A stretch of 64,000 nucleotides of DNA. Source: a virus. Location: the IMG/VR virus record IMGVR_UViG_3300029419_000188; one strand, written 5' to 3'. The first letter of the stretch is position 1, and every line of letters begins with the position of its first letter. The notes below the pieces were generated by a model, which worked only from the letters and a program-made list of their open reading frames with translations, was not told the origin of the DNA and searched no databases. Below, in pieces: positions 12,217 to 56,461 of this stretch. A program made the position numbers and the translations under genes.

Positions 12217-12236
12217 AAATATCTGTTGACAATTGT
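12217..12236. promoter_or_regulatory. 14-bp palindrome TTGACAATTGTCAA-like candidate operator overlapping a -35 element, representative copy
   Basis: further copies at ~36884, 40822, 46417 and 56326, each matching the palindrome at 12-13 of 14 positions. Confidence 0.5.
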
Positions 12237-12284
12237 CTTTAAAAATGGTATTATAAATTCATAAATAAGAAAGGAAAGAAGTTT

Positions 12285-13679
12285 ATGATTCAAATTATTA
12301 TTCCAATTATTGTAGCAATTATTTTAATCTTTTTTATGGGATATGTAAAAGCTCCACCAAATATTGCAATTATTATTTCTGGTTTAAAGAAAGAACCAAG
12401 GTATTTGATTGGACGAGCTGGAATTAAAATTCCATTTCTAGAAAGAAAAGATACTCTAATTGTAAAACAAATTTCAGTTGATATTAAAACAAATGGTGCA
12501 ATTCCAACTGCAGATTTTATTGGTGTTGATGTTGATGCTGTTGCAAAGATTAAAATTAAAACTGATCAAGATGGTATTAAAAAAGCAATGGGAAACTTTC
12601 TTAATATGTCTGAAGATCAAATTATTGAAGCACTCACTGATTCTCTTCAGGGCAACATGAGAGAGATTATTGGTACAATTCCATTAAAAGATATCTGTAA
12701 TGATAGAAAACGTTTTGGAGATGAAGTACAAGAAAAAGCACAAACAGATATGAATGCACTTGGTATTGAAATTATTTCTTGTAATATTCAAAGAGTAGAA
12801 GATGAAAATGATTTAATTAATGCTCTTGGTCAAGATAATATGGAACAAATCAAGAAAGATGCAAGTATTGCTAAAGCAAATGCCAAAAAAGAAGTTGCCA
12901 TTGCAGAAGCTGAAGCAAGAAAAATTGCAAATGAAGCAGATGTTGAAGCTGACAGAATTATTGCAGAAAGAAATAATGAGCTTGAAATTAAGAAATCTGA
13001 ACTTAAAAAACTTGCTGATATGAAGAAAGCAGAAGCTGATGCTGCATATTCAATTCAAGAACAAGAACAAAGAAAATCCATTGAAGTAACAACAGCAAAT
13101 GCAGATATTGCAAAAGAAGAACAATATATTATTCTAAAACAAAAAGAAGCAGATGTTAAAGAACAATCTCTTAATGCTGAAATTAAGAAAAAGGCAGAAG
13201 CAGACAAATTTGCAAAACAACAAGATGCTGAAGCTCAATTATTTGCAAGACAAAAAGCAGCAGAAGCTAAAAAATATGAATTAGAATTAGAATCTGCTGG
13301 TATTAGAGCAAAAGGTGAAGCTGAAGCCGATGCAATTAGAGCAAAAGCAATTGCAGAAGCTGAAGGTATTGAGAAAAAAGCAGAAGCAATGCAAAAATAT
13401 GGTGAAGCTGCTATTCTTGAAATGTTCTTTAATGCATTTCCAGAAGCAGTTAAAAATGCAGCAGAGCCTCTTGGTAATGTTGAATCTATTACCATGTACG
13501 GTAGTGGAAATAATGAAAAAATGATTGATTCAATTATGAATACTGTAACACAAGTATCAGATGGAATTAAAGGATCAACTGGATTAGATGTAAAAGCTAT
13601 TATTGAAGAAATGATTGAGAAAAAGAAAGAAACAAATCAAGATTTCAAAGAAGTTGATGTTGAAGAAACTGTTGAATAG
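12285..13679 (+). CDS. flotillin-like SPFH/Band-7 domain membrane protein
   Basis: N-terminal TM helix, SPFH core, then a long Ala/Glu/Lys-rich coiled coil (AEAEARKIA...) typical of FloT/YuaG-like flotillins; sigma-70-like promoter TTGACA-17-TATTAT upstream, overlapping the palindrome TTGACAATTGTC. Confidence 0.7.
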   Translation: MIQIIIPIIVAIILIFFMGYVKAPPNIAIIISGLKKEPRYLIGRAGIKIPFLERKDTLIVKQISVDIKTNGAIPTADFIGVDVDAVAKIKIKTDQDGIKKAMGNFLNMSEDQIIEALTDSLQGNMREIIGTIPLKDICNDRKRFGDEVQEKAQTDMNALGIEIISCNIQRVEDENDLINALGQDNMEQIKKDASIAKANAKKEVAIAEAEARKIANEADVEADRIIAERNNELEIKKSELKKLADMKKAEADAAYSIQEQEQRKSIEVTTANADIAKEEQYIILKQKEADVKEQSLNAEIKKKAEADKFAKQQDAEAQLFARQKAAEAKKYELELESAGIRAKGEAEADAIRAKAIAEAEGIEKKAEAMQKYGEAAILEMFFNAFPEAVKNAAEPLGNVESITMYGSGNNEKMIDSIMNTVTQVSDGIKGSTGLDVKAIIEEMIEKKKETNQDFKEVDVEETVE

Positions 13680-13681
13680 TT

Positions 13682-13712
13682 AAAGAGAGAGTTTTTAACT
13701 CTCTCTTTTTTA
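13682..13712 (+). terminator. rho-independent terminator
   Basis: hairpin aaagagagagttttt-aactctctcttt plus a T-run. Confidence 0.7.
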
Positions 13713-14162
13713 GTTTAAATTTTTCCCATATAATTTTTTGTTTATAAAGTTTTGATTACAATCCAATTGATATAAATCTGTATTATTATAAGGAATATAA
13801 ACCATATAATATGTTTGTCCAATACGAATTTGATTTAAATTTTCTCTTAAAGTAAAATCTTCCGTTAATTTCAAATTATCATAATTTGAAAAAAGCATTT
13901 TTTGATAAGAACGTTTATGTTTCCCACTAGTTTTATAATGTTGAATATCGATCAATTCAACTTTTTGAATATAAAAATTATTTTCTTTAATTTTTTTTAT
14001 AATTTTTTTTGTAAGAATTTAAAGCAAAATTATAAATTAACAGATATAAAATTGCAATTGTTGCTTCATGAAATGAAAATAAAAGATTATTTGTTATATT
14101 TTTTTTATAAAAATATATAATATAAAAATTAAACTTATAAGAATTTTAAAAGGAGTAAATTT

Positions 14163-14393
14163 ATGAAAAAACCAACTAAACAAGAATATGAAGAAGCTTG
14201 TAATAACATTAATTTTTGTAAAAATACAATTCGTTTAACAAGACAGAAGATTGATAAAAATTTAGATGAACTTTGTTCTTTAAAAAGTCAATTAAACACT
14301 TATCAAGAATTTTTAAATCAATCAATTAAAATCAAAGATAAATATGAAATTTATGAAGGATTAGAAAACGAGAAAAATGAAGAAAATTTGTAA
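14163..14393 (+). CDS. hypothetical small coiled-coil protein
   Basis: RBS AAAGGAGTAAATTT. Confidence 0.45.
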   Translation: MKKPTKQEYEEACNNINFCKNTIRLTRQKIDKNLDELCSLKSQLNTYQEFLNQSIKIKDKYEIYEGLENEKNEENL

Positions 14394-14448
14394 GACAAGT
14401 AGAATAAACAAATGAAAATATTTAAAATTTTCAAAAGGAGAGAAAATT

Positions 14449-15455: not shown

Positions 15456-17256
15456 ACTCATGACTAAAGTCACGAGTGTCTTTCAAGATACATGTTTATA
15501 ACTCATTAAAAATGAGTATAGGATTAAATGCACAATCCAGATATTTTCTTACCTCATATGCCTGATGCAAATTTTTTGGATTTGTCTTACTCTGGCTCGC
15601 ATAGTTATCCCTTGATAACCATGATCGTACTATATACGATATAAGCTTAAACTACCACCATTCCCAGCGGTACTAAATTTTTTATATAATAATTGATAAA
15701 ATCTATTGTTGATATTTCATTTACATCGTTATATATATATAATTAATTTTATAAAGTTTTTTTATTATAACCTAAAATTTTATATTACAAGAATATTATT
15801 AAGAGACAAAATACTAATACCTTCATCAAATAAATTATTTTTTGCATTTGCATCTCGATCATGATGTACTCCACAAATTGGACATGTCCATTCACGATTA
15901 TTTAATTTCAAATTTACATTCTTATAACCACAATGATTACATAACTTACTAGATGCAAAAAATCTATCTACTTGAAGAAAAATGCCACCTTTCTTTTCCA
16001 TTTTATATTTTACAAATGTTAAAAATTGTCCCCAACCAACTGATGCAATTGCTTTCGCTAACTTATGATTTTTTATCATACCTTTAATATTTAAATCTTC
16101 ACAAATAAAAACATCACATTTATTTACAATTTCTTTACTTAATTTATGATGAAAATCTTTTCTTTGATTTTTAATCTTTTGATGTTCTTTTGCTAATTTG
16201 TATTTTGCTTTTTGATAATTATTAGATCCTTTCTTTTTTCTACTAAGTGATTGACTTAATCTTCTTACTCTTTTTTCATGTACTTTAATAAATTTTGGAT
16301 TTTCAACTTTTTCAGTATAATCTTTATTTCCATAAATAGCAAAATCTTTAATTCCCATATCAGATGCAATAATATTTTTTACATGCACAGTCGTAATAGG
16401 AATTGGTTTATCAACAATTGCTTCCATTTGCAATGAAATAGTATAAGTATCTTTATTTCTTTTTATTGTTGCACTTGTAATATTTGTATTCTCTGGTTGA
16501 ATATCCTGTAAGGTTTTTCTTTTTGGTAAAACAAATCTTACTTTTCCAACTTTAGGAATTTTTACATATGGTAATTTATCAATCATTAATAATTCAATGT
16601 TGTTATTTGTATATTTTGTTGTATAGGAGTTTCCACTTTCTTTATATTTATCTACAAATTTAGGAAATCCTGCTTTTTTACCATTTTTAATATTTTCAAA
16701 AAAATGATTATATGCATCATCAACATGTTCAATTGCACTTTCTAATGCAAATTTATCAGATAATTTTAAGAATCCATTTTCTTTTTTTAATTTTGGTAAA
16801 AAATTCTTTTTATAGTCAGATACAAATAGAGTTTCTTTTGAAGTTTCATAAAGATTTTTACGTTCTGATAAATAATTATTTCTTACAAATCTTGCATTAC
16901 CAATTTGTTGATTAATATTGATTGTTTGCTTTTCATTTGGTAATAAAGACAAAATAATACCATAATTAAAAAGCATTTTTCCATATGGTTCAAGAAGTGT
17001 ATTCTTATCTTTTGTAATAGTGAAACTTCTGCCATGAAAAATATATTTATTATTAATGATTTCTAATGTTAGCATATTTTTTATTCCTTTCATATCTGAT
17101 AAATATCATTCTATTACATTTATTGACAAAAGTCAATAAAAAATTCGTTTTTTAGTATTTTTTTATATTTTTAATAATTTCTTTATACATTAAAAATATC
17201 CTACAATAATAGTATTATTGTAGAAAGAAACTTTACTCATGACTAAAGTCACGAGT
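15455..17256 (-). mobile_element. TnpB-only IS200/IS605-family element (IS1341-like) bracketed by a 23-bp direct repeat containing an imperfect hairpin
   Basis: tactcatgactaaagtcacgagt at 15455-15477 and 17234-17256; tnpB inside; GC-richer 3' region 15480-15780 where a right-end guide (omega) RNA would be encoded. Confidence 0.55.
15780..17075 (-). CDS. tnpB: TnpB (IS605 OrfB family RNA-guided nuclease-like transposon protein)
   Basis: GNARFVRNNYL N-terminal motif and a C-terminal zinc finger CNHCGY...CPICG followed by HDRDANAKNN (RuvC-III-like); start moved to the ATG with RBS GAAAGGA. Confidence 0.7.
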   Translation of the reverse strand: MLTLEIINNKYIFHGRSFTITKDKNTLLEPYGKMLFNYGIILSLLPNEKQTININQQIGNARFVRNNYLSERKNLYETSKETLFVSDYKKNFLPKLKKENGFLKLSDKFALESAIEHVDDAYNHFFENIKNGKKAGFPKFVDKYKESGNSYTTKYTNNNIELLMIDKLPYVKIPKVGKVRFVLPKRKTLQDIQPENTNITSATIKRNKDTYTISLQMEAIVDKPIPITTVHVKNIIASDMGIKDFAIYGNKDYTEKVENPKFIKVHEKRVRRLSQSLSRKKKGSNNYQKAKYKLAKEHQKIKNQRKDFHHKLSKEIVNKCDVFICEDLNIKGMIKNHKLAKAIASVGWGQFLTFVKYKMEKKGGIFLQVDRFFASSKLCNHCGYKNVNLKLNNREWTCPICGVHHDRDANAKNNLFDEGISILSLNNILVI

Positions 17257-17632: not shown

Positions 17633-18136
17633 ATGAAATATTTAAGCAAATTAACAGATGCAGAACTTACGGAAATTTACAAATCTTTTATGACTTCAAC
17701 TGATAAATTTGTAGATTTAATAATTACAAGAGATGAGAACAGTATTACACTAGAAGGACATATTCGTATTCCAGAAGAAGATAAAGAGTATGCAGATGAA
17801 GAAGGATATTGTCTAATTGATGAAGATTATGAGATTACAGATTACAATGTAACAGCATATCATCATTCTGGAAATATGGATTATAAATTAAGAGAATATT
17901 TATATGAAAAATTTGGAGTTGAATATGCAAAAGATTTCTTATTTATGAATAATAATTTTACTGGGCATTATGATGTAAATGGAAAACCAATCTTCCTCGG
18001 AGATACTATTATTGAAGGTTGTAATGGACTTATCAGTAGTGTTGAATTTAATAAAGAACGTGGTGCATATTGGTTAAAAGGACTTGGTGATGGTTATTCA
18101 ATTGAAAATTCATCTATTGAATGGGAAAAAATTTGA
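17633..18136 (+). CDS. hypothetical protein
   Basis: promoter tctataat at 17583; consensus leader. Confidence 0.5.
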   Translation: MKYLSKLTDAELTEIYKSFMTSTDKFVDLIITRDENSITLEGHIRIPEEDKEYADEEGYCLIDEDYEITDYNVTAYHHSGNMDYKLREYLYEKFGVEYAKDFLFMNNNFTGHYDVNGKPIFLGDTIIEGCNGLISSVEFNKERGAYWLKGLGDGYSIENSSIEWEKI

Positions 18137-18149
18137 AAGGAGTGAAAAT

Positions 18150-19903: not shown

Positions 19904-19919
19904 AAAAAGGAGAGAAAAT

Positions 19920-35554: not shown

Positions 35555-36796
35555 TTATTTTTTTTTAATTTTTTTCCAATATTCTTCATACATTTTTTCC
35601 ATTTGACTTGTTCCAAAATGATAATATTGTTTATTCTTTAATTTTTCTGGCATATATTCTTGTTCTACATAATGATTTGGATAATCATGTGGATATAAAT
35701 ATCCATTTCCATGATTTATATTTTTTGCATTAGAATAATGACTATCTTTCAAATGATGAGGAACTTCTTCTACATTTACATCTTTCATAGCTTCTTCAAT
35801 CGCTAAATAGCATTTGTTACTCTTAGGTTGAAGTGTTAAATATACAACAGCTTCTGATAGTGGAAGTCTACATTCTGGATATCCTAGTTGTATTGCAGTA
35901 TCTACTAATGATTTAACAACTACAATGGCATTGAAATTTGCTGATCCAACATCTTCACATGCAGAACAAAGTAATCTACGTATAATTACTGGTAGGGCAT
36001 TATTTCCACCTTGCAAAAGTAAAGATAAATAATGTAGTGCTGCATCTGTTGCTGATCCACGTAAAGACTTCATAAATGCACTAGCTAGATCATAATATCT
36101 ATCATTTTGTGAATCAAGACTTAAATTAATAGCTAGTTCATTTAAATCTTCAGTATGTAAAAATACATCATTAGAAAATGGATTTTTATTTTTAAAAAAA
36201 CATGTTTCAAATTTGTTCAAACAATTTCTTAAATCTCCATTTGTTCTCATAATTAATTCTTCAATGAAATTATCATCCATTTTAATTTTACAATTGAAGT
36301 CTTTCTCAATTTTCTCTACAATTAAATTTAATCTTTTACTAATATCTTCTTGATTTAATTCTTTAAATTCAAAAATAATACAACGTGAAAGAATTGCTTT
36401 GTTAATTGTGAAATATGGATTTTCTGCAGTGCTACCAATGAGTATTACATTTCCATTTTCTACAGATTCTAATAGTACTTGCTGAGTTCGTTTTGAGATT
36501 AAATGTAATTCATCAATATATACAATTTTTTCTTCATCATTTTCATTTATTATATCTTTTAAATCTTTTACAGATAAATCAACAGCATTTAATTGAATAA
36601 AATGTTTATTCAATTCCTTTGCTAATATTCTTGCTAATGTTGTTTTTCCTGTACCTGGTGGTCCATATAAAATAATAGATTGAATATACTGATTTGTAAT
36701 AAATCCTTGAATGATACTATTTTTGTGTAAAAGATGCTTCTGTCCAACCATTTCTTCAATTTTTTTTGGTCTATATTTTGTTGCAAATGGTTCCAT
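35555..36796 (-). CDS. rarA: RarA/MgsA-family AAA+ ATPase (replication-associated recombination protein A homolog)
   Basis: N-terminal KYRPKKIEEMVGQKHLL, Walker A GPPGTGKTTLA, Walker B IVYIDELH, and the MgsA C-terminal helical domain (DRYYDLASAFMKSLRGS.TDAALHYLSLLL.GG ... LAIEEA); start at MEPF with RBS GAAAGGGGA. Confidence 0.75.
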   Translation of the reverse strand: MEPFATKYRPKKIEEMVGQKHLLHKNSIIQGFITNQYIQSIILYGPPGTGKTTLARILAKELNKHFIQLNAVDLSVKDLKDIINENDEEKIVYIDELHLISKRTQQVLLESVENGNVILIGSTAENPYFTINKAILSRCIIFEFKELNQEDISKRLNLIVEKIEKDFNCKIKMDDNFIEELIMRTNGDLRNCLNKFETCFFKNKNPFSNDVFLHTEDLNELAINLSLDSQNDRYYDLASAFMKSLRGSATDAALHYLSLLLQGGNNALPVIIRRLLCSACEDVGSANFNAIVVVKSLVDTAIQLGYPECRLPLSEAVVYLTLQPKSNKCYLAIEEAMKDVNVEEVPHHLKDSHYSNAKNINHGNGYLYPHDYPNHYVEQEYMPEKLKNKQYYHFGTSQMEKMYEEYWKKIKKK

Positions 36797-36926
36797 AAAA
36801 TTTCCCCTTTCTATTATCAATTATTATCTAAGTATAATATGTTCAACTTGAAAAATATTTCAATTTATGATAAAATCATAAATGAAATAAAGACAATTGT
36901 CAATAAAAAATAGAAAGGATTAAAAA

Positions 36927-38558
36927 ATGATTACAGATTTTATAGTTGGGTTTGTCCAATTTTTAAATAAAAATGAATATACCATTTCACAAGAACAAAT
37001 TTCTAGATTTTTTTCATTAATCTATTCTTTAAGAATTTCATTTATAAATGAACAAGATATTATTGATTTAATGAAAACAGTTTTTTGTTCAACTAAACTA
37101 CAATCAGAGTATATTCAAAAATATTTTAAGGAATATACAGATATTTATTTAAAAGAAAATTTAAATAAAAAAAATAAAAAAGATTTAGAACAAAAAAAAG
37201 AAACAGAATATCAAAAATTTCATAAAAACATACAAAACAAAGAAATTTTCTTAAAAGAACTTGACAATGAAATTAATAAAAAAATCCTTGAAGTAAAAAA
37301 TGAAGCTGTTGATTATCAAAAAATAATGACAAATAAAGATAAAAAATTTGTAAAACAAAATTTAGAAAAATTGAAAGAAATTAATCATGATAATAAAAAT
37401 ATGATAAAATTTTTAGATGAATTTGAAAAAGATTCAGATTGTTTTGCAATTAGTTCAATATTTGAAAAAGAAAGTGAAAATTTAATAGAAAAGGCTGAAA
37501 AATTATTATTTGATGGTAAAATTAAAGAATTTGAATTAGAAGAAGAGTTTTATCAAATATCTAAACGTTTAAAAAATAAAATTGAAAAAACTGATATTGA
37601 GTCAAGAATTCAAAAAGAAACAAGAAGTTTAAAAACACAACAGAAAAAAATTCAAAAAGAAATAGAACAAGAAAAAGAAGAACATACAAAAATTATGAAT
37701 CAAATTGAACAGATTCTTCAAAATCAAAGATTAGAAACAGAATCAAAAATTATAAAAAAGGAAGAATCCATTAATCATAGAGAAATATTTATTGGTGGTA
37801 ATAGTTTTGTACAAACAGATAAAAATACAAAAGAACTGTTTACAAAAAATATTGGAAGTTTAAATAAAGACGAAAGAAATCAAATTATTAGATATATTAA
37901 ACGAAACATTCTAAAATTTAAAACAAAAATGAACAGAAGTATTCATACAAACCAAAGACTTGATTTTAATATAAAAGATACCATTCAAAATGCATGTAAA
38001 ACAAGTGGTTTACCAATGCAATTAATTTTTGATAAACCAATGAATAATAAATCAAATCTTGTATTGATGTTAGATGTCTCAGGGTCTTGTTCAACTGCAT
38101 CAAAAATGATGTTAACATTTATGTATCTTTTAAAAGATGTTTTCCCAAGAGGCTGTGATACTTTTGCATTTGTAAATTCATTATATGATATTTCAGATAT
38201 CATGAAAACATCAAATATTGAAACAGCAATTGATTCTGTGTTAAATGCAATTCCAAGAAAAGGTGTTTATTCTAATTATTATAAACCTTTGGAAACATTA
38301 TGGACTGAATATAAAAAGACAATCACGAAAGATAGTATTGTTATTTTTATGGGAGATGCCCGTAATAATAAAAATAATACTGCTGAAGAATTTATGAAAA
38401 ATATTGGACATCGTGCAAAAAAATGCTATTGGTTAAATACAGAAAAATATGATAAATGGAACAAAGCAGATTCTCTTGCATCATTATATGGAAAATATGC
38501 AACTATGTATGAAGTAGTTAATATTGGAGAATTAATTAATTTTATTGAGAATATATAG
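36927..38558 (+). CDS. coiled-coil protein with a C-terminal von Willebrand factor A (VWA) domain
   Basis: MIDAS-type DVSGSCS (DxSxS) followed by a conserved T and GDARNN; ~330-aa K/E-rich coiled-coil N-terminus; NorD/CbbO-like architecture; palindrome AGACAATTGTCAA ~40 bp upstream. Confidence 0.6.
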   Translation: MITDFIVGFVQFLNKNEYTISQEQISRFFSLIYSLRISFINEQDIIDLMKTVFCSTKLQSEYIQKYFKEYTDIYLKENLNKKNKKDLEQKKETEYQKFHKNIQNKEIFLKELDNEINKKILEVKNEAVDYQKIMTNKDKKFVKQNLEKLKEINHDNKNMIKFLDEFEKDSDCFAISSIFEKESENLIEKAEKLLFDGKIKEFELEEEFYQISKRLKNKIEKTDIESRIQKETRSLKTQQKKIQKEIEQEKEEHTKIMNQIEQILQNQRLETESKIIKKEESINHREIFIGGNSFVQTDKNTKELFTKNIGSLNKDERNQIIRYIKRNILKFKTKMNRSIHTNQRLDFNIKDTIQNACKTSGLPMQLIFDKPMNNKSNLVLMLDVSGSCSTASKMMLTFMYLLKDVFPRGCDTFAFVNSLYDISDIMKTSNIETAIDSVLNAIPRKGVYSNYYKPLETLWTEYKKTITKDSIVIFMGDARNNKNNTAEEFMKNIGHRAKKCYWLNTEKYDKWNKADSLASLYGKYATMYEVVNIGELINFIENI

Positions 38559-38568
38559 AGGTGAAATT

Positions 38569-40767
38569 ATGGGAAAAAGTAAAGGTGGAACAACTTTATT
38601 TCAAAAATTTATAAAAAATAATATAAATGAATTAAACAATGAAATTAATCTTTTAATCAAAGATTATCCACAAATTAACTCATTAGAATCTATTACTTTA
38701 ACATCAAAGACAGAAGCAGAAGCTATTTTTAAATTAAAAACAGGATTTTATGTGAAAACTGAAATTAGAAAATGCAAAATAAATAGATGTATCAGTGAAC
38801 TAAAGAAATTTTTGGATAAGTATTTTTCAATAGAAACGCCATTCCAAAAATACTTAAAAAATAATTTAGATGAATTAAAATGTGATATTAATAATTTATT
38901 AATTATCTATCCAGATATAGATTCATTAGAAACTATTATATTAACATCTAATAAGACTGCAAATGTTAAATTCAATCTAAAAAGTGGAAAACATATTGAA
39001 ATAGAAATAAAAAGATGTAGTACTGATAAGTGTATCAAAGAATTAAAAAATTCATTAATAAAAACCATTGAAAACAAAGAAATATTTGAAATTTATATAG
39101 AAAACAATTTAGAATCATTAAAAAATGAAATAAATACTTTGATTGTAGATTATCCATATATTGATTCTTTAGTAAATATCACATTGATATCAAAAAAGGC
39201 TGCAAATGTGAAATTTAAATTAAAAACAGGAAAAATAATTGAAACTGAAATTAGAAAATGTACAGTAAATAACTGTATAAAAGATATCAATAATTATTTA
39301 ACTTATTATTTTATGAATAATCAGAAACTCATTGAAAAGGACTTAGTTCAAGACATTTTAACAAATAATGATTATAATGAAATTGAAAATAGAATAAACA
39401 ATATACTTGATGATAAAAGAATACATATAAAAATTTCAAAAAATGTTCAAGTCTATTATGATACAAAAAAAGTATATACAAAATCATTTTTTGATTTAAT
39501 CAATTTAATGGACTATTTTGAATTAAAGTTTTCAGAAAACAAAAAAGAGACTATTCTCAAAAAACCAAAAGAAAAGATGTATACAAGTATTTCTAAAAAA
39601 TTAAAAACAAAATTAAAGAATGTAAATATTGATGTACCAAAAGAAAATAAAATTGTAAAAGAAGCTGAAAAAATTTACAATGATTATAAATTAAAAAATA
39701 ATACAATGTTAAATACAAAACAATATAAAACAAAAACTATGAATTGTAGTCATTCATTATTAGATTTGTCAGAGCTTAAAATAGACACAAAAGAATTCAA
39801 AATTATAGATAGTAAAAATGAACTACACATAAATTATAAGCCTAGTTTTAAAAATTATAATGATATTGTAAATTCAGATTTATTTCAAAGAGCTAATACA
39901 ATGTTAAAAAATTACATTAAAAACTCAGAATACAATTTTACAGAATTTAAAGGTCTTGGATTTTGGTTTGGTTCAACAACATTTTTGGTTAGTAATTCTA
40001 AATGGGAACAATCTTATTTAATTAAAATTGATTCTCCATATTCTGAAAAAATGAATGTAGAAGATTGGATGACGGATGTTACAAATAAAACAACATCAAA
40101 GATTGTTGATATTGAAAGAAAAATTGAAGAAAAAAGGCAGAAAATTTATAAACAAACTACAAAATATCGAAACAGTTTTTTAGCAAGAGATATTGTATCA
40201 TTTATAAAAAAGAATGAAGAATATATTACAGAAAATGCAGTTATTCAATATATGAAGGGAAATACTGTTCAATTAAATACAGTTATTCATGATTTACCAG
40301 ATTTCATACCATATAAAAATTATACAAAAGATGAAATTTCTAAAATCATAAAATCATTGGTAAATAATAATATTATAGAAGAATGGGCATATAAAGGTAC
40401 GTATGGAACATTTTATACTTTACATTTAACAAATAATAATTATAAACAAATTCTTTTAACTGTAAAGGAAACTGGTATTACTCTTGATCCATTTTCCAAA
40501 ACTGTATTCACAGATTTTGAAGCTGAAAAAATATTTTTTGATTATGAAAATAAGATTCATTTAGCAATAAGAGATTATATAATGTTATTTAATTTAAGTT
40601 CTTCAAAAGGATTCTTGATTAGATATTATGATGAATATATTTCTATTTTACAAAATGCACCAAAAGAAGTAAAAAAACTTTGGAAAATGAAAATAGATAT
40701 GGAGCAAAATAAATTTATAAAAAAATTTTTAAAAGAAATTATAAAAACTCCAAAAGTTCATAATTAA
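38569..40767 (+). CDS. large hypothetical protein with three N-terminal tandem ~83-aa repeats and a C-terminal winged-helix-like segment
   Basis: repeats FQK(F/Y)(I/L)KNN..EL...IN.L...YP.I.SLE.I.LTS...A...F.LK.G......EI(R/K)(R/K)C....CI.ELK occur three times; the start overlaps the VWA gene end, suggesting translational coupling; terminator at 40784-40812. Confidence 0.5.
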   Translation: MGKSKGGTTLFQKFIKNNINELNNEINLLIKDYPQINSLESITLTSKTEAEAIFKLKTGFYVKTEIRKCKINRCISELKKFLDKYFSIETPFQKYLKNNLDELKCDINNLLIIYPDIDSLETIILTSNKTANVKFNLKSGKHIEIEIKRCSTDKCIKELKNSLIKTIENKEIFEIYIENNLESLKNEINTLIVDYPYIDSLVNITLISKKAANVKFKLKTGKIIETEIRKCTVNNCIKDINNYLTYYFMNNQKLIEKDLVQDILTNNDYNEIENRINNILDDKRIHIKISKNVQVYYDTKKVYTKSFFDLINLMDYFELKFSENKKETILKKPKEKMYTSISKKLKTKLKNVNIDVPKENKIVKEAEKIYNDYKLKNNTMLNTKQYKTKTMNCSHSLLDLSELKIDTKEFKIIDSKNELHINYKPSFKNYNDIVNSDLFQRANTMLKNYIKNSEYNFTEFKGLGFWFGSTTFLVSNSKWEQSYLIKIDSPYSEKMNVEDWMTDVTNKTTSKIVDIERKIEEKRQKIYKQTTKYRNSFLARDIVSFIKKNEEYITENAVIQYMKGNTVQLNTVIHDLPDFIPYKNYTKDEISKIIKSLVNNNIIEEWAYKGTYGTFYTLHLTNNNYKQILLTVKETGITLDPFSKTVFTDFEAEKIFFDYENKIHLAIRDYIMLFNLSSSKGFLIRYYDEYISILQNAPKEVKKLWKMKIDMEQNKFIKKFLKEIIKTPKVHN

Positions 40768-41131
40768 TGTATGTTTTGAATTTGAAACCATTGAAATTTC
40801 AATGGTTTCATTTCATTAAACATTTGACTATTGTCAATAATCATGATAAAATAAAAAAATATAAAAAGATTAATTTTTATAAAAAACAATAAATATAACT
40901 TCAGCAATCATTAAAGTGAATTAAAGAATACTGAGAGAAATTGTGAAAATGACAAAAGAAGAAAAAGACAATATAAGAAAAGAATTAAATCAATATACTA
41001 AAGAAGAGTTAATTGAAAAAATAATTATTGAAAGAGAAGAAAATCAGAATCAATTACTTTTTCTTGAAATGAAAATTGATGAAATAGGAACTTTATTAAA
41101 ACTTTGAAATAATTAGAAAGGTGAAAAATTA

Positions 41132-42037
41132 ATGAATATAATTGAGATTAAAAAAGGATTAAAAAATGTCAATTATATGGCATCTAATGATATTATTTTT
41201 GCAGCAGCAGGTACAATTAATGAACAAATCCCATTATTAATAGAAGGTGCACCAGGCGCAGGGAAGACTGCATTAGCAAAAGCTGTTTCAGAAATGTTAG
41301 GATATAAATTGATAAGAGTACAATTTTATGAAGGTTTAACAGCTGATAAAATTTTATATGATTATGATTATCAAAGACAATTACTTACTATTGAATCTAT
41401 AAAAAGTGTTTTAGCAAAAGAATTAAATGATAAAAATATTGAAGAAGCAATTGATGCAACAAAAGATATTAATTTTTATGGGAAATCATTTTTAATTCAA
41501 AGACCAATTTTAGAGTCTATTATGAGTGATGAACGATGTGTATTACTTTTGGATGAAATTGATAAAGCTTCTGAAGAAATTGAATATACATTATTACAAT
41601 TTCTAGATGAATTTTCATTGTCAATCCCACAATATGGAACAATTACTGCAGATGAAAATAAAAAACCAATTGTATTTTTAACATCTAATAATTATAGAGA
41701 TTTATCTGATGCATTAAAGAGAAGATGTAATTATCTTTATATAAATAATAAAACAAAAGAAGAAATGATGGAAATTTTAAAAATGAAAGCAAATATATCT
41801 GATCAACTTGTAAATGGTGTAGCATCTTGTTTAGTTGATATTCAGAAATTAAATTTAAAACAAATGCCATCCATTGATGAAGGTATTAAATGGGCAACTT
41901 ATCTTCAAAAGAATTTTAGTGAAATTAATGAAGATAATATTGATTATACCATTTGTATGCTTGCAAAAAATAATGATGATGTAAAGGAAATTTTAAAAGC
42001 AAATGTAGTGAAAAAAAACATTGGAAAACAATTCTGA
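41132..42037 (+). CDS. MoxR-family AAA+ ATPase (CbbQ/NorQ/GvpN-like subgroup)
   Basis: Walker A GAPGAGKTALAK, ...LIRVQFYEGL...LYDYDYQRQLL resembling CbbQ/NorQ, Walker B VLLLDEIDKAS; palindrome TTGACTATTGTCAA in its promoter region at ~40822. Confidence 0.65.
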   Translation: MNIIEIKKGLKNVNYMASNDIIFAAAGTINEQIPLLIEGAPGAGKTALAKAVSEMLGYKLIRVQFYEGLTADKILYDYDYQRQLLTIESIKSVLAKELNDKNIEEAIDATKDINFYGKSFLIQRPILESIMSDERCVLLLDEIDKASEEIEYTLLQFLDEFSLSIPQYGTITADENKKPIVFLTSNNYRDLSDALKRRCNYLYINNKTKEEMMEILKMKANISDQLVNGVASCLVDIQKLNLKQMPSIDEGIKWATYLQKNFSEINEDNIDYTICMLAKNNDDVKEILKANVVKKNIGKQF

Positions 42038-45201: not shown

Positions 45202-46377
45202 TTATATTTTTTCAATCAATAATTCTTTAATTTTTTCAACATTACTATTTCCACAATGAAGCAATTTTGTATTTGTTTGTTTACAAATTTCTTTAACATG
45301 ATAATAAGTTGTATGATTTACATAATTTGTAAAAACAACTACATAATCAGATTTTGGAATACTATTTTCATAATTTTTAAATGCAATTTTTGCAGTAGGA
45401 AATGCATTTTGTAATTCATTTAAAAATGTACATCTGTCTGAAATGATAAATAATAATTGATAATCATTAATATTTTTATCAAAAGTTGTAATCATTTCTT
45501 CTTCTTTTTCTTCTTCTGTAATGGTTATTTCTTGTGAAGTTTGTTTCTTTAATTTTTCTCTCAATTCTTCATTATTTTTTAATAATTCATAATTTTCTTT
45601 TCTCAATTCTTCTGTATTTCTTTTTATCAATAATCTAGTTTCTTCATTTTTTTTCTGCAAATCATTTTTTAATTTTTCAATTATTATTTCTCGTTCTGTA
45701 AGTTTTTCTTCTAATTTTTCATTTTCATGCATTGTGTCAAACATCTGCTTTGTAACATCTAATAATTCTTCACCATTGTCTCCTTTATAATCCTCATTAA
45801 TTAAAATTAAATGTTCAAATGATACGATTATTTTATAAAAAGCTTCATTTAATATCTTTAATTGATCTGGATCAGATAGAGGTAACAATTCTCGAATATA
45901 ATTAACTTCATTGATTGTTGGATTTTTTGCTGATAAATATGCAATATATTCTTGATATACATTTTCTAATTCATGATGTATCATTTTATAAATTACTGGT
46001 CCTTGTGTAAATACATCTTTTACTTCTTCTAAATCCTTTTTTGCAATTAAAATAGATGGAATTTCTGGTAAATGAAAGAGATGTAATAGTACTTTCATTT
46101 TTTTATAATCTTCATTCAAACTATGTACATATATTACCATATTTGCTAAAAGATAATCATCAATATTTGTTATTTTAAATGGTCCATTATGATAAATTTT
46201 ATCAAATGAAGGTGTATTATCTTTCACATATTTAAATAAATCCAATTTTGCCTTTGTTACAAATCTCGAAAATCTTTTACCTTTGAAATCTTCATCCATT
46301 GCAAAAGAATGAAGATAATTTTCATCCATATTATTCATAGTATCTAAAGCTTTTTCTAATATTTTTTCTAAATCCAT
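45202..46377 (-). CDS. hypothetical coiled-coil protein with a C-terminal domain resembling DUF2325
   Basis: RBS AAAGGAGTG; long coiled coil; C-terminus DYVVVFTNYVNHTTYYHVKEICKQTNTKLLHCG; palindrome AGACAATTGTCAA ~40 bp upstream of the start. Confidence 0.45.
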   Translation of the reverse strand: MDLEKILEKALDTMNNMDENYLHSFAMDEDFKGKRFSRFVTKAKLDLFKYVKDNTPSFDKIYHNGPFKITNIDDYLLANMVIYVHSLNEDYKKMKVLLHLFHLPEIPSILIAKKDLEEVKDVFTQGPVIYKMIHHELENVYQEYIAYLSAKNPTINEVNYIRELLPLSDPDQLKILNEAFYKIIVSFEHLILINEDYKGDNGEELLDVTKQMFDTMHENEKLEEKLTEREIIIEKLKNDLQKKNEETRLLIKRNTEELRKENYELLKNNEELREKLKKQTSQEITITEEEKEEEMITTFDKNINDYQLLFIISDRCTFLNELQNAFPTAKIAFKNYENSIPKSDYVVVFTNYVNHTTYYHVKEICKQTNTKLLHCGNSNVEKIKELLIEKI

Positions 46378-46532
46378 ACTATCACTCCTTTATTATATTT
46401 ATATTGTATCATATTTACAGACAATTGTCAAAAATATTGTAAAATTTAAAACAATATAAAAAAATAAGAATATTTTTTATTTAAGAATCTATAATAAAGA
46501 AAAAAAATGTAAGTTTTGAAAAGGAGAGAATT

Positions 46533-53418: not shown

Positions 53419-53913
53419 TTAATCTCTTGTTTCAAAGTTTTTACAATTAGAAACTTTCATATCATCAATATATCCATTTATTGTATCATCTTTATTGCAA
53501 AAATAATAAAGTTCTGTTCCTGTATAATCAAAAGTTTGTGTTAGATGTTTGCAATTCATACAAGTATATTGTTTAAAACAATAATCATAAGTATATTCAA
53601 ACTTAGTAACATCTACAATATCAAATATCTTATTACCTATTTGTAAAATTTCTTCATCAATTTGTCCAATATATCCAGATATATTAGATTTCAAAATGTC
53701 TTCTGGTCCATAACACCATTGAACGTAATTTTTATATGAATCATATTCTAGAGAATATTCTTTTAATTGATTTTTAATGCTTTTTTGCAATTTTTCATTA
53801 TTTTGAAAACTTGAAAAAAAACAAAATCCATAATAATCTTCTGCAAATCCTTTATCAAAAATTACAATATATAAATTATTACTCAAACTATAGATTCCAC
53901 CTATTTTTAACAT
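53419..53913 (-). CDS. hypothetical protein, KIGGIY paralog family with a Cys-rich C-terminal extension
   Basis: MLKIGGIYSLSNNLYIVIFD; SGYIGQIDEEILQ; RBS AAAGGACAAG. Confidence 0.5.
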   Translation of the reverse strand: MLKIGGIYSLSNNLYIVIFDKGFAEDYYGFCFFSSFQNNEKLQKSIKNQLKEYSLEYDSYKNYVQWCYGPEDILKSNISGYIGQIDEEILQIGNKIFDIVDVTKFEYTYDYCFKQYTCMNCKHLTQTFDYTGTELYYFCNKDDTINGYIDDMKVSNCKNFETRD

Positions 53914-53965
53914 TTCTTGTCCTTTCTAATTTTTCTCAATTGTTTTCTTTATTATAGATTTTTTT

Positions 53966-54418
53966 TTGTGTATTATTCAGTTTTTGTCTATTATTTTTAC
54001 ATATTCACTTGTGGAAAAGATAGATTTAAAAACAACAAAAAGGAAAAGTACCTATCAAAATAAGAAATTAAATAAAATCACACATACAATTCCATACGCA
54101 AGATATTTAGAAATGGTAAATTATCTTGGTTATAAATTTGAATTTTTGATTATTAAAGTTCATCTTGCCTATACTAGTCAAATTGGAAAAATAAAATATC
54201 AAGACAAAATGAAAATTCCATCTCATATTGCTGCTAGTTATGTAATTGCAAGACGTGGAATGAAATATAGTCATAATGAACATATTCCAAAAGAATATAA
54301 ACATTTCATTCAAGATATAAAAGAAAAACATTATTGGAGTAAATTTAATAAAATTTACAAGGAACTAGAAAACAAAAAAAGGCAACTAAAAAACATAAAA
54401 CTAAACAACAAACCATAA
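53966..54418 (+). pseudogene. truncated, degenerate TnpB-like C-terminal fragment
   Basis: LAYTSQ (RuvC-II ..YTSQ-like) followed directly by HIAASYVIARRG (RuvC-III D.D.NAA.NI.RRG-like, with D replaced by H); no zinc finger or N-terminal domains. Confidence 0.4.
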
Positions 54419-54780
54419 ATAATAAATAAACTTATATATAGGAAGTACTCAGTTCTTTGAAGGACTTGTTAATGAATTGCTATGTATCAACCTGTAAATC
54501 TGATAGGAAGTTGTTTTTTGTGCCGACTTGATTTTCTCTCCATGGGATTAGAAAATAGTGAAAAAAACACATTTCTATCAGAATACAAAAAGTCTACCGC
54601 GATGTAGATAGTAAGATTGTAAGACTCAAATTCTTAAACTGTACTCATGTGTGGGTATAAGTAAGAATCTTCCCACTTCAGCACAATAAACAACTGGTCA
54701 CAGTTGATTATTGTGTAAGTGGGAGTAGTTCAATCTAGGAAAATCTAAAAATCAAACTAAAGTATAAAATTAAACATATA
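54419..54780 (+). ncRNA. GC-rich structured non-coding region, candidate IS right-end/omega-RNA remnant
   Basis: long hairpin tcttcccacttcagcacaataa-[caactggtcacagttg]-ttattgtgtaagtgggag with a nested hairpin; lies immediately 3' of the TnpB-like fragment. Confidence 0.35.
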
Positions 54781-55020
54781 AAAAAATACATAACAAACAG
54801 AGATATTCAAAATGGATATCTCTATTTTATATGTTTTTTTTAACATTTAAATACAAAACTATTTATTATATGTATGCTTTTTACAATAGCAATTGGTATT
54901 ATAAATTTATTACAAGACAATGCAAATGAAATTAATTTTAGAAAATCTGCATTAACAGAATATTACATAAGGAAAAACAAGAAATAAGGAGTGAATCCAG
55001 CGTTCCTTATTTTTCACCTT

Positions 55021-55731
55021 CTAACATTCCAAAATTTGAATACTATCATATGTTTCCAAATTCAATGTACCATAACTACCATTCATTCTTCCAAATAGAA
55101 TGATATTATATTCCTTTTCTTCATTAATTCTTCCTTCAAATTTCGTGAGATAAATATTACATAAAAACCTATTGCCTTGATATACAGACAAAAAGTAATA
55201 GTTTCCAAATTTTTTTCCCTCTTTTTTTCTTAATTTTAATCTCACTTTTCTACCATAGTATAAGTAGAGAGAATCATCTGTTTTGTCCAAGAATCTTAAA
55301 GATTTTCTGCGTATAGTTTTCTTTGATGTCTGTCCCTTCTCACTTCTCTTTTCATTTTCTTCTATCAAAAATGGGTTTACAGTTTCTATGTTGTCTTCAG
55401 TCTTTATTTTCTCTTCAAACAAGCTTCTGTAAAAAACAGATAATTTCTCTTGTATGTTTCCATTTTTCTTCAATTTATCCACATACTTCATCATTGTACG
55501 ATTGCTAACTTGGTTGTAATTATTAATACAATTCTCTTCATGATGATTATCTATCAATTGTCCATTTGTGGAAAGATATCCCTCTTTTCCATGATAATAG
55601 ACCAATTTTGCTTTTTTACAAACAGGACAGAGAATATGTCCTTTCTGTATTTTTTTAAAATTTTCATCTTCTAATTCTTCAATCATATGATATTGTCCAT
55701 CCAAATTACTGTAAAATTGTTCATATTTCAT
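55021..55731 (-). CDS. hypothetical Zn-ribbon (CPVCKK) protein
   Basis: RBS AATAGGAGAGATAAAG on the minus strand. Confidence 0.5.
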   Translation of the reverse strand: MKYEQFYSNLDGQYHMIEELEDENFKKIQKGHILCPVCKKAKLVYYHGKEGYLSTNGQLIDNHHEENCINNYNQVSNRTMMKYVDKLKKNGNIQEKLSVFYRSLFEEKIKTEDNIETVNPFLIEENEKRSEKGQTSKKTIRRKSLRFLDKTDDSLYLYYGRKVRLKLRKKEGKKFGNYYFLSVYQGNRFLCNIYLTKFEGRINEEKEYNIILFGRMNGSYGTLNLETYDSIQILEC

Positions 55732-56461
55732 CTTTATCTCTCCTATTTTTTTCTTTCATTATAGATGAAATTGTTTTTTTTATTCCTATTTTTTCATTCC
55801 TCCTCGGTTTCTCTTTCCCATAGAGGTCCTTCTACACAAACATTGGGAATGGTTTCAACCATTCCCTATGTCCTCACTTCTCCCTTTCAACAAAAGCGAC
55901 TATCTGTTAGAAGTCCTTTCCCCATTTTTTCAAACATCTTTTCTCGAATCTATCCAATTCTTCTCCTTTCTTCCATTTTTCAAAAATTCTTTCCTTCTCT
56001 TTCTTATTTTCTTCTTCAATCTCTCTAATTCTTTTCCCTAGTAAATCAATAAGATTATCAGTCCATTCTGCCACTTCTTCTTCTGTAGTATCTAGTTCAA
56101 TTGGATTATCAAGATCAAGAACACTTGCAGACAAGTGGTTATGAACAATTCTTCTCGGCACTAAAGTACCGAGGATGCTTGTTCAATAATCCTTAAAGTG
56201 TATAAATACCTTCATTTCAAATAGACATTCCTATTTCATAAATTCTTTCTATTTCATGGGACTGTTTTGTTTTGCATCAACAAAGTGTACAAAAATTTCT
56301 GTCAAAATGAAAGAAAATTTGTGACAATTGTCAATAGACAAGTGAAACCACAAATGATATGATGTGTAAATACATTAAGTGAAAGGAGAAAATTTGCTGA
56401 TGAAAACAAAAAAATTGGATGATGTAAGAAAAATGAATGAAAAATTTTGGAGGGAAAATAG

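What the first reader, a model, noticed from the sequence alone, without database searches (positions are those of the whole stretch)
12217..56345. 14-bp palindrome TTGACAATTGTCAA at five promoters
Near-perfect copies (12-13 of 14 positions) lie upstream of the flotillin gene (~12223), between rarA and the VWA gene (~36884), upstream of the MoxR gene (~40822), upstream of the coiled-coil gene 45202..46377 (~46417) and upstream of the membrane-protein gene 56462 (~56326). Five copies of a 14-mer in 64 kb are unexpected by chance even in AT-rich DNA. Each copy overlaps a -35-like TTGACA, consistent with a dimeric repressor operator defining a regulon that includes the flotillin, RarA and MoxR/VWA genes.
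Basis: seen in the sequence. Interest (0 to 1): 0.6.

Follow-up and report, generated by a model that had tools for sequence, protein, structure and literature searches.

The report
Conserved palindromic operator at cargo-gene promoters
A 14-base palindrome (core GACAATTGTC) sits on or beside the promoters of five to six genes in this AT-rich human-gut mobile-element-like DNA and is kept at the same promoters in diverged relatives, so it is very probably the binding site of one dimeric repressor; this is a real but ordinary kind of regulatory motif whose binding protein is still unknown.

Summary
Five copies with 12-13 of 14 matches lie at 12226, 36890, 40824, 46418 and 56321. The exact core GACAATTGTC occurs 4 times against at most 0.07 expected. 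All copies are intergenic.

In four copies the left half is the -35 hexamer of a near-consensus TTGACA-17-TAnnAT promoter (flotillin, rarA, 54-aa/MoxR, DUF2325). The 36890 copy also lies just downstream of the start site of a separate VWA promoter. The fifth copy abuts a TAGACA-17-TATGAT promoter. A sixth, variant copy (TTGACAAAAGTCAA, 17123) is the -35 of a TnpB promoter.

Metagenomic relatives (63-88% protein identity) carry the palindrome, often perfect, at the orthologous VWA, MoxR, flotillin and DUF2325 promoters and at unrelated genes. The flanks have diverged, and the site has moved relative to the promoter (downstream of the start site versus over the -35). That points to an operator rather than a promoter quirk. 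More distant relatives lack it.

The half-sites match the known Crp/Fnr-type box TTGAC-N4-GTCAA, but no Crp/Fnr or other HTH gene was found in about 71 kb here or in the related loci.

Best reading: operator of an unidentified dimeric repressor that co-regulates self-contained, host-like cargo genes of an uncharacterised phage- or plasmid-like element. It is a new member of a known kind, of moderate interest.

The parts
12226..12239 (.). Site 1, TTGACAATTGTCTT. Its left half is the -35 of the flotillin promoter (TTGACA-17-TATTAT with TG, 12226-12254, + strand).
   Evidence: The orthologous promoter in L248 (88% flotillin identity) has TTGACAAAAGTCAA-17-TATAAT.
12285..13679 (+). Flotillin (Band_7 + Flot) gene, followed by a terminator-like hairpin at 13682-13708. 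It forms a self-contained promoter-gene-terminator unit.
   Evidence: It is 62-66% identical to Lachnospiraceae flotillins.
17123..17136 (.). Probable sixth site, a variant with centre AAAA (TTGACAAAAGTCAA). On the minus strand it is the -35 of TTGACT-17-TAGAAT in front of the IS605-type TnpB gene (15780-17093, minus strand).
   Evidence: The same centre variant is found at the L248 flotillin promoter.
36890..36903 (.). Site 2, AAGACAATTGTCAA. On the minus strand it is the -35 of the rarA promoter (TTGACA-17-TATGAT, 36903-36875). On the plus strand it lies about +8 to +21 downstream of the VWA promoter (TTGAAA-17-TAAAAT with TG, 36848-36876) and 23 nt before the VWA start codon.
35555..36796 (-). 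RarA/MgsA AAA+ gene. The true start is the ATG at 36796; that product is an exact match to called genes in the public contigs.
36927..40767 (+). VWA_CoxE gene (36927-38558) and a 740-aa unknown gene (38545-40767), ending at the terminator hairpin 40783-40810.
   Evidence: The cassette is conserved in L007, L008 and L009.
40824..40837 (.). Site 3, TTGACTATTGTCAA. Its left half is the -35 of TTGACT-17-TAAAAT with TG (40824-40852, + strand), directly after a terminator. It drives the 54-aa ORF (40943-41107) and MoxR (41132-42037).
41132..42037 (+). MoxR-type AAA+ ATPase (AAA_5) gene.
   Evidence: It is 83-89% identical in L007, L008 and L009.
46418..46431 (.). Site 4, CAGACAATTGTCAA. On the minus strand it is the -35 of TTGACA-17-TACAAT with TG (46431-46403), driving the coiled-coil/DUF2325 gene (45202-46377, minus strand).
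   Evidence: An identical promoter and operator are present in L252-L255 (82% protein identity).
56321..56334 (.). Site 5, GTGACAATTGTCAA. It abuts a + strand promoter TAGACA-17-TATGAT with TG (56335-56363), so its centre is at about -42.5. That promoter leads to a 23-aa ORF and the 117-aa membrane-protein ORF (56462-56815). On the minus strand a perfect TTGACA faces the 84-aa ORF (55907-56161) but has only a weak -10. The regulated strand is ambiguous.

Best explanation
The palindrome TTGAC-W4-GTCAA (here mostly TTGACAATTGTCAA, with invariant G3, C5, G10 and C12) is a cis-acting operator for one homodimeric DNA-binding protein. The protein recognises the two GAC/GTC half-sites one helical turn apart.

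At most targets the left half-site coincides with the -35 hexamer of a near-consensus sigma-A/sigma-70-type promoter (TTGACA, 17 nt, TAnnAT, often with an extended -10 TG). The site then covers -35 to -22. At the VWA operon it lies between the transcription start and the ribosome-binding site. A bound dimer would therefore exclude or block RNA polymerase and hold otherwise constitutively strong promoters off until the protein is inactivated or diluted.

The controlled units are self-contained, host-like cargo genes: flotillin, RarA, the VWA-unknown-MoxR cassette, a DUF2325 protein and a TnpB. They sit in an uncharacterised 23% G+C human-gut element with phage- and plasmid-like gene content.

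Shown: the motif, its enrichment, its promoter register and its conservation. Inferred: protein binding, dimer, repression. Unknown: the protein. I put about 45% on an element-encoded factor with no recognisable domain or lying outside the sequenced pieces, about 30% on a host Crp/Fnr-like factor, and leave the rest open.
For: 1. Enrichment. There are 9 hits against 2.2 expected. The exact core occurs 4 times against at most 0.07 expected. All GAC-W4-GTC occurrences are intergenic.

2. Independent enrichment in relatives. The exact core occurs 3, 2 and 3 times in L007, L008 and L009, with P of 1e-4 to 1e-6 each. Every GAC-N4-GTC occurrence in those loci is a motif site.

3. Footprints at orthologous promoters. 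The palindrome is kept while flanks diverge, upstream of VWA (alignment A3) and upstream of MoxR (A4). The flotillin promoter of L248 keeps TTGAC....GTCAA with a different centre.

4. The site moves relative to the promoter but is retained. It lies downstream of the -10 in the window, L007, L008 and L009, and over the -35 in L095.

5. The second half-site (TTGTCAA) is perfectly kept at 10 promoters that are unidirectional, with no usable -10 on the other strand. Polymerase recognition does not explain it.

6. The palindrome-bearing promoters are the top-scoring promoter-like sites in their regions. They have exact 17-nt spacers, so they need no activator.

7. The half-site architecture equals a documented transcription-factor box: wyTTGACnnnnGTCAArw for HcpR (PMC1274295) and the Anr box TTGac-N4-gtCAA overlapping a -35 (PMC4974557).
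Against: No candidate regulator was found. Pfam scans of 70 window ORFs found no HTH, Crp, Xre or RHH domain apart from the transposase's own HTH_OrfB_IS605. The precomputed Pfam tables of the related loci also show none.

Part of the conservation is explained simply by the left half being a -35 hexamer.

At the four VWA sites the half facing away from VWA is always the perfect TTGACA. This could mean a conserved divergent promoter rather than pure operator symmetry.

The DUF2325 promoter is identical in the relative and so carries no footprint information.

The relatives are few and phylogenetically related. There are no expression or binding data.
Confidence: 0.65

Rival explanations
1. The site binds a Crp/Fnr-family regulator that acts as an activator or co-activator (class-II-like) and responds to a host signal such as redox, NO or a cyclic nucleotide, rather than as a repressor.
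For: The motif is identical in architecture to FNR/Anr/HcpR boxes. At 56321 the palindrome centre is about -42.5 relative to the adjacent TAGACA-17-TATGAT promoter, the classical class-II position.
Against: At 15 of 21 sites the centre is about -28.5, inside a promoter that already has TTGACA, a 17-nt (once 18-nt) spacer and a -10 hexamer matching 5 or 6 of 6 positions. At the four VWA sites it lies downstream of the start site. These positions block polymerase. No cNMP-binding or HTH_Crp domain protein is present in the window.
Confidence: 0.1
2. No dedicated protein binds the site. The palindrome is a promoter signature of this lineage: an optimal -35 plus a preferred spacer sequence, or two back-to-back -35 hexamers giving divergent transcription, spread by duplication of a promoter cassette.
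For: Both halves read TTGACA on their own strand. At 36890 the minus-strand half is used as the rarA -35. The downstream spacer (TAAATATGATAnAAT) is also similar among sites, suggesting copies of one cassette. At the VWA sites the perfect half always faces away from VWA.
Against: Most perfect palindromes have a good -10 on one strand only. The VWA sites sit downstream of a separate complete promoter, and in L009 the upstream gene is co-directional, so no divergent gene is served. The flanks and spacers of orthologous promoters have diverged while the G/C positions of both half-sites are invariant. The C. botulinum copy of the related IS200/IS605 promoter lacks the second half.
Confidence: 0.12
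3. The palindromes are recombination or insertion scars marking the 5' boundaries of mobile gene cassettes (target or core sites of a recombinase or transposase).
For: The sites lie at the 5' edges of self-contained, host-like units. The VWA-MoxR cassette sits in different neighbourhoods in different relatives. An integrase and IS200/IS605 elements are present.
Against: A site also lies inside the cassette, before MoxR. The register to the -10 is fixed at 17 nt. A 5-4-5 palindrome is too short for tyrosine-recombinase core sites and unlike the IS605 ends, which are seen separately at 15460 and 17239. There is no matching site at the 3' boundaries.
Confidence: 0.03
4. Chance clustering of an AT-rich word that contains the common -35 hexamer.
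For: The window is 23% G+C and promoter-like hexamer pairs are no more frequent than in shuffles. Four of the nine hits are weak.
Against: None of 100 shuffles reaches the observed count. The exact core has P of about 1e-6. The same enrichment recurs in three relatives and at orthologous promoters.
Confidence: 0.01

Closest known systems
Crp/Fnr-family boxes of the TTGAC-N4-GTCAA type: the HcpR1 motif wyTTGACnnnnGTCAArw (Rodionov et al. 2005, PMC1274295) and the Pseudomonas Anr box (PMC4974557). The Listeria PrfA box tTAACAnnTGTtAa is related (from my own knowledge).
   Same: It is a 14-bp palindrome with 5-4-5 architecture and identical half-sites TTGAC/GTCAA. It is bound (in those systems) by a homodimer with a C-terminal HTH. 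The sites often overlap the -35 region.
   Different: Here the centre is at about -28.5 or about +13 rather than -41.5. The promoters already have consensus -35, spacer and -10. The central four bases are strongly AATT. The context is a Firmicute-style AT-rich mobile element, not nitrogen-oxide or anaerobic genes. No Crp/Fnr gene was found.
Dispersed operators of phage immunity repressors: Cluster A mycobacteriophage 'stoperators' (PMC9283540, PMC6550527). The P1 C1 operators and the phiC31 conserved inverted repeats are cited from my own knowledge.
   Same: One short motif recurs at many intergenic places of a single mobile genome, at or next to promoters, is shared by related elements and is absent from more distant ones.
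   Different: Stoperators and P1 operators are asymmetric. Stoperators are bound by a monomer and act in an orientation-dependent way on elongation. Here the site is a true palindrome in fixed register with the -35. No repressor gene has been identified, and the temperate status of the element is unknown.
IncP-1 (RK2) KorA/KorB global regulon (PMC2680271, PMC11790492).
   Same: Palindromic operators are embedded at a fixed position in several promoters of one extrachromosomal element. [quoted passage not shown]
   Different: RK2 is a Gram-negative plasmid. Its operators have different sequences. KorB is a ParB-type clamp acting at a distance, and its regulators are known and encoded on the plasmid. 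No ParB or KorA homologue was seen here.
Phage 'morons' (autonomous promoter-gene-terminator units in phage genomes; from my own knowledge).
   Same: Flotillin, the MoxR unit and the 84-aa ORF are bracketed by their own promoter and a terminator-like hairpin. The genes look host-derived.
   Different: Classical morons are not known to share a common operator. Here the units are tied together by one motif.

Membership tests
Crp/Fnr-family binding site (FNR/Anr/HcpR-type box) | 14-bp inverted repeat TTGAY-N4-RTCAA with a weakly constrained 4-bp centre | tested here: met
   The position weight matrix from 17 sites has invariant G3, A4, C5 and G10, T11, C12. The centres seen are AATT, TATT, ATTT, AAAT and AAAA. 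The consensus equals wyTTGACnnnnGTCAArw.
Crp/Fnr-family binding site (FNR/Anr/HcpR-type box) | A cognate Crp/Fnr protein (cNMP-binding-like domain plus HTH_Crp) encoded in the same genome, often near a site | tested here: not met
   No such domain was found in 70 window ORFs or in the precomputed Pfam tables of the related loci. The host genome and the rest of the element are not available, so absence is not proven.
Crp/Fnr-family binding site (FNR/Anr/HcpR-type box) | Site centred near -41.5 (class II) or -61.5 and further upstream (class I) at activated promoters | tested here: not met
   The centre is about -28.5 at 15 of 21 sites, about +13 at the four VWA sites, and about -42.5 only at 56321. 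Start sites are predicted, not mapped.
Operator set of a mobile-element global or immunity repressor (P1 C1, Cluster A gp71, KorA/KorB type) | Multiple dispersed copies of one motif in intergenic regions of a single element, at or near promoters | tested here: met
   There are 5-6 copies in 64 kb, all intergenic and all at promoter-like sites, and 2-4 copies per 12-22 kb in relatives.
Operator set of a mobile-element global or immunity repressor (P1 C1, Cluster A gp71, KorA/KorB type) | Motif shared by closely related elements and lost or changed in more distant ones | tested here: met
   The motif is present in L007, L008, L009, L095, L114, L115, L248 and L252-L255 (23-30% G+C, VWA identity 63% or more). 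It is absent in L010-L022, L091-L094, L096-L113, L246, L247 and L250. L090, a 65%-clade fragment, carries the two-mismatch VWA-upstream copy AAGACTATTGTCAA, which the filter missed. No replacement palindrome was detected in L091 or L094.
Operator set of a mobile-element global or immunity repressor (P1 C1, Cluster A gp71, KorA/KorB type) | Repressor gene encoded on the element, usually itself preceded by an operator | tested here: inconclusive
   No recognisable DNA-binding gene lies next to any site. The DUF2325 protein was tested by AlphaFold2 (pLDDT 79) and Foldseek against the PDB and shows no DNA-binding fold. Only about 71 kb of the element is available.
Sigma-70/sigma-A promoter -35 element | TTGACA-like hexamer 16-18 nt upstream of a TAnnnT -10 hexamer, in front of a gene | tested here: met
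   This holds for sites 12226, 36903(-), 40824, 46431(-) and 17136(-): 10-11 of 12 matches, 17-nt spacers, and TG in three of them. It does not hold for 56321 or for the VWA-side reading of 36890.
MerR-type operator | Palindrome lying within an over-long (19-20 nt) -35/-10 spacer | tested here: not met
   The spacers are 17 nt.
Firmicute LexA (Cheo) box or restriction-modification controller C-box | CGAAC-N4-GTTCG for LexA; GACT-N3-AGTC pairs next to restriction-modification genes for the C-box (consensus sequences from my own knowledge) | tested here: not met
   Sequence and spacing differ. No restriction-modification genes are adjacent. CAATTG, the centre of the motif, is not avoided in the window: 53 observed against 35-38 expected.

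The most novel reading that the evidence does not exclude
The palindrome is the operator of a DNA-binding protein with no recognisable domain, encoded by a previously undescribed family of very AT-rich human-gut giant phage- or plasmid-like elements. The protein would act as a master switch that keeps a set of host-derived cargo modules (flotillin, RarA, VWA-MoxR, DUF2325, secreted CAP proteins) silent or on together. That would make it a KorA/C1-like global circuit in an uncultivated Firmicute element, built on a Crp/Fnr-like box but used for repression.
Probability: 0.25. Interest if true: 0.55.

Novelty: new member of a known kind. Interest (0 to 1): 0.38.

Why it matters
The motif gives a concrete handle on gene regulation in an uncultivated, unannotated, AT-rich element that recurs in human-gut metagenomes. 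It is a 14-bp site that can be used for DNA-affinity capture or DAP-seq to fish out the regulator. It can also be used to delimit the co-regulated cargo set in complete assemblies and to test in metatranscriptomes whether flotillin, RarA and the VWA-MoxR cassette are switched together. It does not change any general concept: palindromic operators overlapping -35 elements and element-wide operator sets are well known.

Tried and rejected
1. Known phage or plasmid. Megablast of 20 kb against the phage and plasmid collections matched only IS200/IS605 transposase genes. IMG/VR has no relative of the flotillin, DUF2325 or VWA proteins.

2. Regulator hunt. Pfam on 70 ORFs, PHROGs on 20 and PADLOC on 10 found no HTH, Crp, Xre or RHH regulator. 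The 7 kb to the right of the window (L117) has no site and no annotated regulator.

3. DUF2325 protein as an autoregulator. The AlphaFold2 model (pLDDT 79) is a helical bundle, a long coiled coil and a small alpha/beta domain. Foldseek against the PDB gave no hit at E of 0.001 or better and no DNA-binding fold, and the profile search of PDB sequences returned only coiled coils.

4. RNA element. There are no Rfam or tRNA hits, and the palindrome's stem is too short to fold.

5. Restriction-site or methylation idea (CAATTG is the MunI/MfeI site). CAATTG is not depleted.

6. Generic IS-promoter feature. The related C. botulinum tnpA promoter has TTGACT-17-TATAAT without the second half-site.

7. 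Exact 14-mer scan of IMG/VR. It returned essentially chance singletons, plus one unrelated high-G+C phage with heptad arrays.

8. Literature. No paper contains the 12- or 14-mer.

9. Replacement palindrome in distant relatives. None was detected in L091, L094 or L011.

10. Extending the window leftwards by exact-protein look-up gave only a 1.9-kb contig.

Full report
**Observation.** The window is 22-26% G+C. A search for TTGACAATTGTCAA with up to two mismatches finds 9 sites against 2.19 expected, and none of 100 dinucleotide-preserving shuffles reaches 9.
- 12226 TTGACAATTGTCTT
- 36890 AAGACAATTGTCAA
- 40824 TTGACTATTGTCAA
- 46418 CAGACAATTGTCAA
- 56321 GTGACAATTGTCAA

The shared core is the 10-bp palindrome GACAATTGTC. 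It is exact at four sites and has one mismatch at the fifth. Its expected count is 0.04-0.07 under Markov orders 0-3, giving P of about 1e-6. It is the commonest G/C-containing palindromic 10-mer in the window. Relaxing the centre, GAC-W4-GTC occurs 8 times against 0.74 expected, and all 8 are intergenic. Five of these are the motif. One is a variant at 17123 (TTGACAAAAGTCAA). Two (15460 and 17239, ATGACTAAAGTCAC) are the end hairpins of an IS605-type element and are unrelated. The hits at 4489 and 28951 lie in ORFs, and 33729 lacks the invariant G10; I treat these three as chance or marginal.

**Genes and element.** Pfam confirms flotillin (12285-13679), RarA/MgsA (35555-36796, minus strand), a VWA_CoxE protein (36927-38558), a MoxR-type AAA_5 ATPase (41132-42037) and a coiled-coil protein ending in DUF2325 (45202-46377, minus strand).

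The rest of the window is mostly ORFs without any family. The exceptions include thymidine kinase fused to a SocA/Panacea domain, a guanylate-kinase-like protein, DUF285/LRR proteins, a YunG-like phage protein, an RlaP nucleotidyltransferase (phrog_388), a SIMPL protein, a tyrosine integrase, a truncated DDE transposase and several IS200/IS605 TnpA/TnpB genes. A dCMP deaminase appears in the precomputed annotation. There are no tRNAs and no Rfam hits.

The DNA is absent from the phage, plasmid and IMG/VR collections. It recurs in metagenome assemblies, and related contigs are labelled human-gut metagenome. Motif-bearing relatives add gyrB, a 5'-3' exonuclease, thymidylate synthase, NAD-dependent DNA ligase and a Replic_Relax protein. 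The flotillin is 62-66% identical to Lachnospiraceae flotillins.

I conclude that this is an uncharacterised phage- or plasmid-like element of a low-G+C Firmicute, probably Clostridia. Its exact nature is not settled.

**Anatomy of the sites.** Read in the direction of the adjacent gene, four sites have the same layout: TTGACA (or TTGACT) as the -35 hexamer, a 17-nt spacer that begins with ATTGTC, and then a good -10 hexamer, three times with the extended -10 TG.
- 12226(+): TTGACA-17-TATTAT, leading to flotillin.
- 36903(-): TTGACA-17-TATGAT, leading to rarA.
- 40824(+): TTGACT-17-TAAAAT. It lies directly after a terminator hairpin (40783-40810) and leads to a 54-aa ORF and MoxR.
- 46431(-): TTGACA-17-TACAAT, leading to the DUF2325 gene.

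These are the top-scoring promoter-like sites of their regions, although such matches as a class are not enriched in this AT-rich DNA. With these -10 elements the palindrome spans -35 to -22, centred at -28.5.

The 36890 site is also 23 nt upstream of the VWA start codon and downstream of a separate promoter, TTGAAA-17-TAAAAT (36848-36876). For VWA it therefore lies at about +8 to +21.

The 56321 site is different. It abuts a TAGACA-17-TATGAT promoter with TG (56335-56363), which puts its centre at about -42.5. On the other strand it has only a weak -10.

The variant at 17123 is the -35 of TTGACT-17-TAGAAT in front of TnpB.

**Comparative test.** Homologues of the VWA protein form an identity series. 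Contigs carrying the 75%, 65% and 63% homologues (L007, L008, L009) share with the window only the VWA-unknown-MoxR cassette, plus RarA in L009. Each nevertheless carries the palindrome 3-4 times, mostly as the perfect 14-mer, always intergenic, and typically as TTGACAATTGTCAA-TAAATATGA-TAnAAT.

The sites lie at the orthologous VWA and MoxR promoters. They also lie before unrelated genes: two secreted CAP/lipoprotein-like proteins, a YdjM-like membrane protein and a 213-aa protein.

Alignments of the orthologous intergenic regions show the promoter hexamers and the palindrome conserved within diverged flanks. Upstream of VWA the palindrome keeps a constant distance to the start codon (18-23 nt) while its distance to the -10 varies from 8 to 13 nt. 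In L095 (72% identity) it has moved to overlap the -35 instead.

The flotillin promoter of L248 (88% identity) reads TTGACAAAAGTCAA-17-TATAAT. Both half-sites are kept, the centre is changed, and the outer AA is restored. The DUF2325 promoter and operator are identical in L252-L255 (82% identity).

More distant relatives have no copy. These are VWA homologues at 46% identity or less, the L091 fragment (67% identity over a partial match), flotillin homologues at 68-69%, and loci of higher G+C. The 65%-clade fragment L090 carries the same two-mismatch VWA-upstream copy as L008, which the filter missed. No replacement palindrome was detected in the distant loci.

A matrix built from 17 sites has invariant G3/A4/C5 and G10/T11/C12, an A/T centre and weaker outer TT/AA.

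**Interpretation.** Chance is excluded. A pure promoter signature does not explain three things:
- The second half-site is perfectly conserved at promoters that are unidirectional.
- The site is retained when it moves relative to the promoter.
- It is present downstream of a complete promoter at VWA in four lineages, including L009, where no divergent gene exists.

A two-fold symmetric site with G/C contacts ten base pairs apart is what a homodimeric DNA-binding protein recognises. The positions (over the -35 and spacer of already consensus promoters, or just downstream of the start site) are those of repression by occlusion or roadblock. The 17-nt spacers exclude a MerR-like mechanism.

The half-sites equal a documented Crp/Fnr-family box: HcpR wyTTGACnnnnGTCAArw (PMC1274295) and the Anr box TTGac-N4-gtCAA overlapping a -35 (PMC4974557). 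This is a lead for how the binder may work. Membership is not established, because no Crp/Fnr gene is present and the positions are not the activator positions, except at 56321.

Functionally the arrangement resembles element-wide operator sets. [quoted passage not shown]

The controlled units here are self-contained, host-like cargo genes with their own promoters and often their own terminators. This is reminiscent of phage morons.

**What remains open.** The binding protein was not found.
- No HTH-type domain was found in 70 window ORFs or in the annotation of the related loci.
- The only conserved regulon member of unknown function, the DUF2325 protein, models as a helical bundle, a coiled coil and a small alpha/beta domain, with no DNA-binding fold.
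- Whether the factor is encoded elsewhere on the element or by the host cannot be decided with the sequence available.
- The consistent asymmetry of the VWA sites, where the perfect TTGACA always faces away from VWA, leaves room for a conserved divergent promoter there. In the window that promoter is the rarA promoter.

**Verdict.** The thing itself is a new member of a known kind: a palindromic repressor-type operator of Crp/Fnr-like sequence architecture, reused at several promoters of an uncharacterised gut mobile element. Interest is moderate (0.38).

Noticed in passing
L130 and L166 (IMG/VR contig IMGVR_UViG_3300031949_000082, 55-58% G+C), e.g. L130:2640-2670, 3801-3835, 9171-9205, 10272-10300; L166:620-650, 938-970: An unrelated high-G+C viral contig has intergenic arrays of 2-5 contiguous heptads TTGACAA/TTGTCAA, in direct and inverted orientation, immediately upstream of start codons. 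This resembles the heptad iterons bound by omega-type ribbon-helix-helix repressors. The heptad equals the half-site of the motif studied here, possibly by coincidence of the search word.
   Followed up: partly
window 17123-17136, with 15780-17093 (minus strand): The IS605-type TnpB gene has a promoter whose -35 is embedded in a variant of the palindrome (TTGACAAAAGTCAA). A transposon-associated nuclease gene may therefore be under the same control. The related tnpA promoter in C. botulinum lacks the second half-site.
   Followed up: partly
window 15460-15473 and 17239-17252: Identical ATGACTAAAGTCAC palindromes within longer hairpins flank the TnpB gene. They are probably the left and right end structures of the IS200/IS605-family element.
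   Followed up: no
window 36927-42037; L007, L008, L009 and L121-L125: The cassette VWA_CoxE, one or two large unknown proteins (weakly repetitive; 740 aa here, 2 x ~570-630 aa in relatives), a small coiled-coil ORF and MoxR is the only block shared between otherwise unrelated neighbourhoods. More distant versions occur in Lachnospiraceae and Erysipelotrichaceae genomes. It resembles the vWA-MoxR conflict-system modules described by Kaur et al. 2020 (from my own knowledge) and matches no PADLOC system.
   Followed up: partly
window 18084-18464, 34519-34842, 42236-42655 and 53419-53913 (minus strand): Four small ORFs share an N-terminal 'KIGGIY(K/S)' motif. They form a paralogous family of unknown function scattered through the element.
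   Followed up: no
L008:1-250, L090:1-100 and L121-L125 upstream of the VWA gene: All contigs of the 65%-identity clade break at or contain a TTATG pentanucleotide tandem repeat just upstream of the VWA promoter. This could be an assembly breakpoint, an element end or a repeat region.
   Followed up: no
L246:995-4404 and L250:4235-8628: Elements carrying the 68-69% flotillin homologue have an anaerobic ribonucleotide reductase gene (nrdD) split by NUMOD4/HNH homing-endonuclease genes, plus PhoH and T5orf172. These are hallmarks of large virulent phages. These loci lack the palindrome.
   Followed up: partly
window 19803-21161: A thymidine kinase is fused to a C-terminal SocA/Panacea (antitoxin-like) domain, an unusual domain combination.
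   Followed up: no
window 55765-56300: This stretch is locally richer in G+C and has few ORFs. It holds an 84-aa ORF (55907-56161, minus strand) with its own terminator-like hairpin (55866-55845), next to a truncated DDE transposase and an integrase. It may be an inserted mobile segment that contains palindrome site 5.
   Followed up: partly
window 1694-2497 and 2570-3361: Two tandem DUF285/BspA-like leucine-rich-repeat genes have identical N-termini (MKLKKNKKGGVFVKVGYAILY...), indicating a recent tandem duplication.
   Followed up: no
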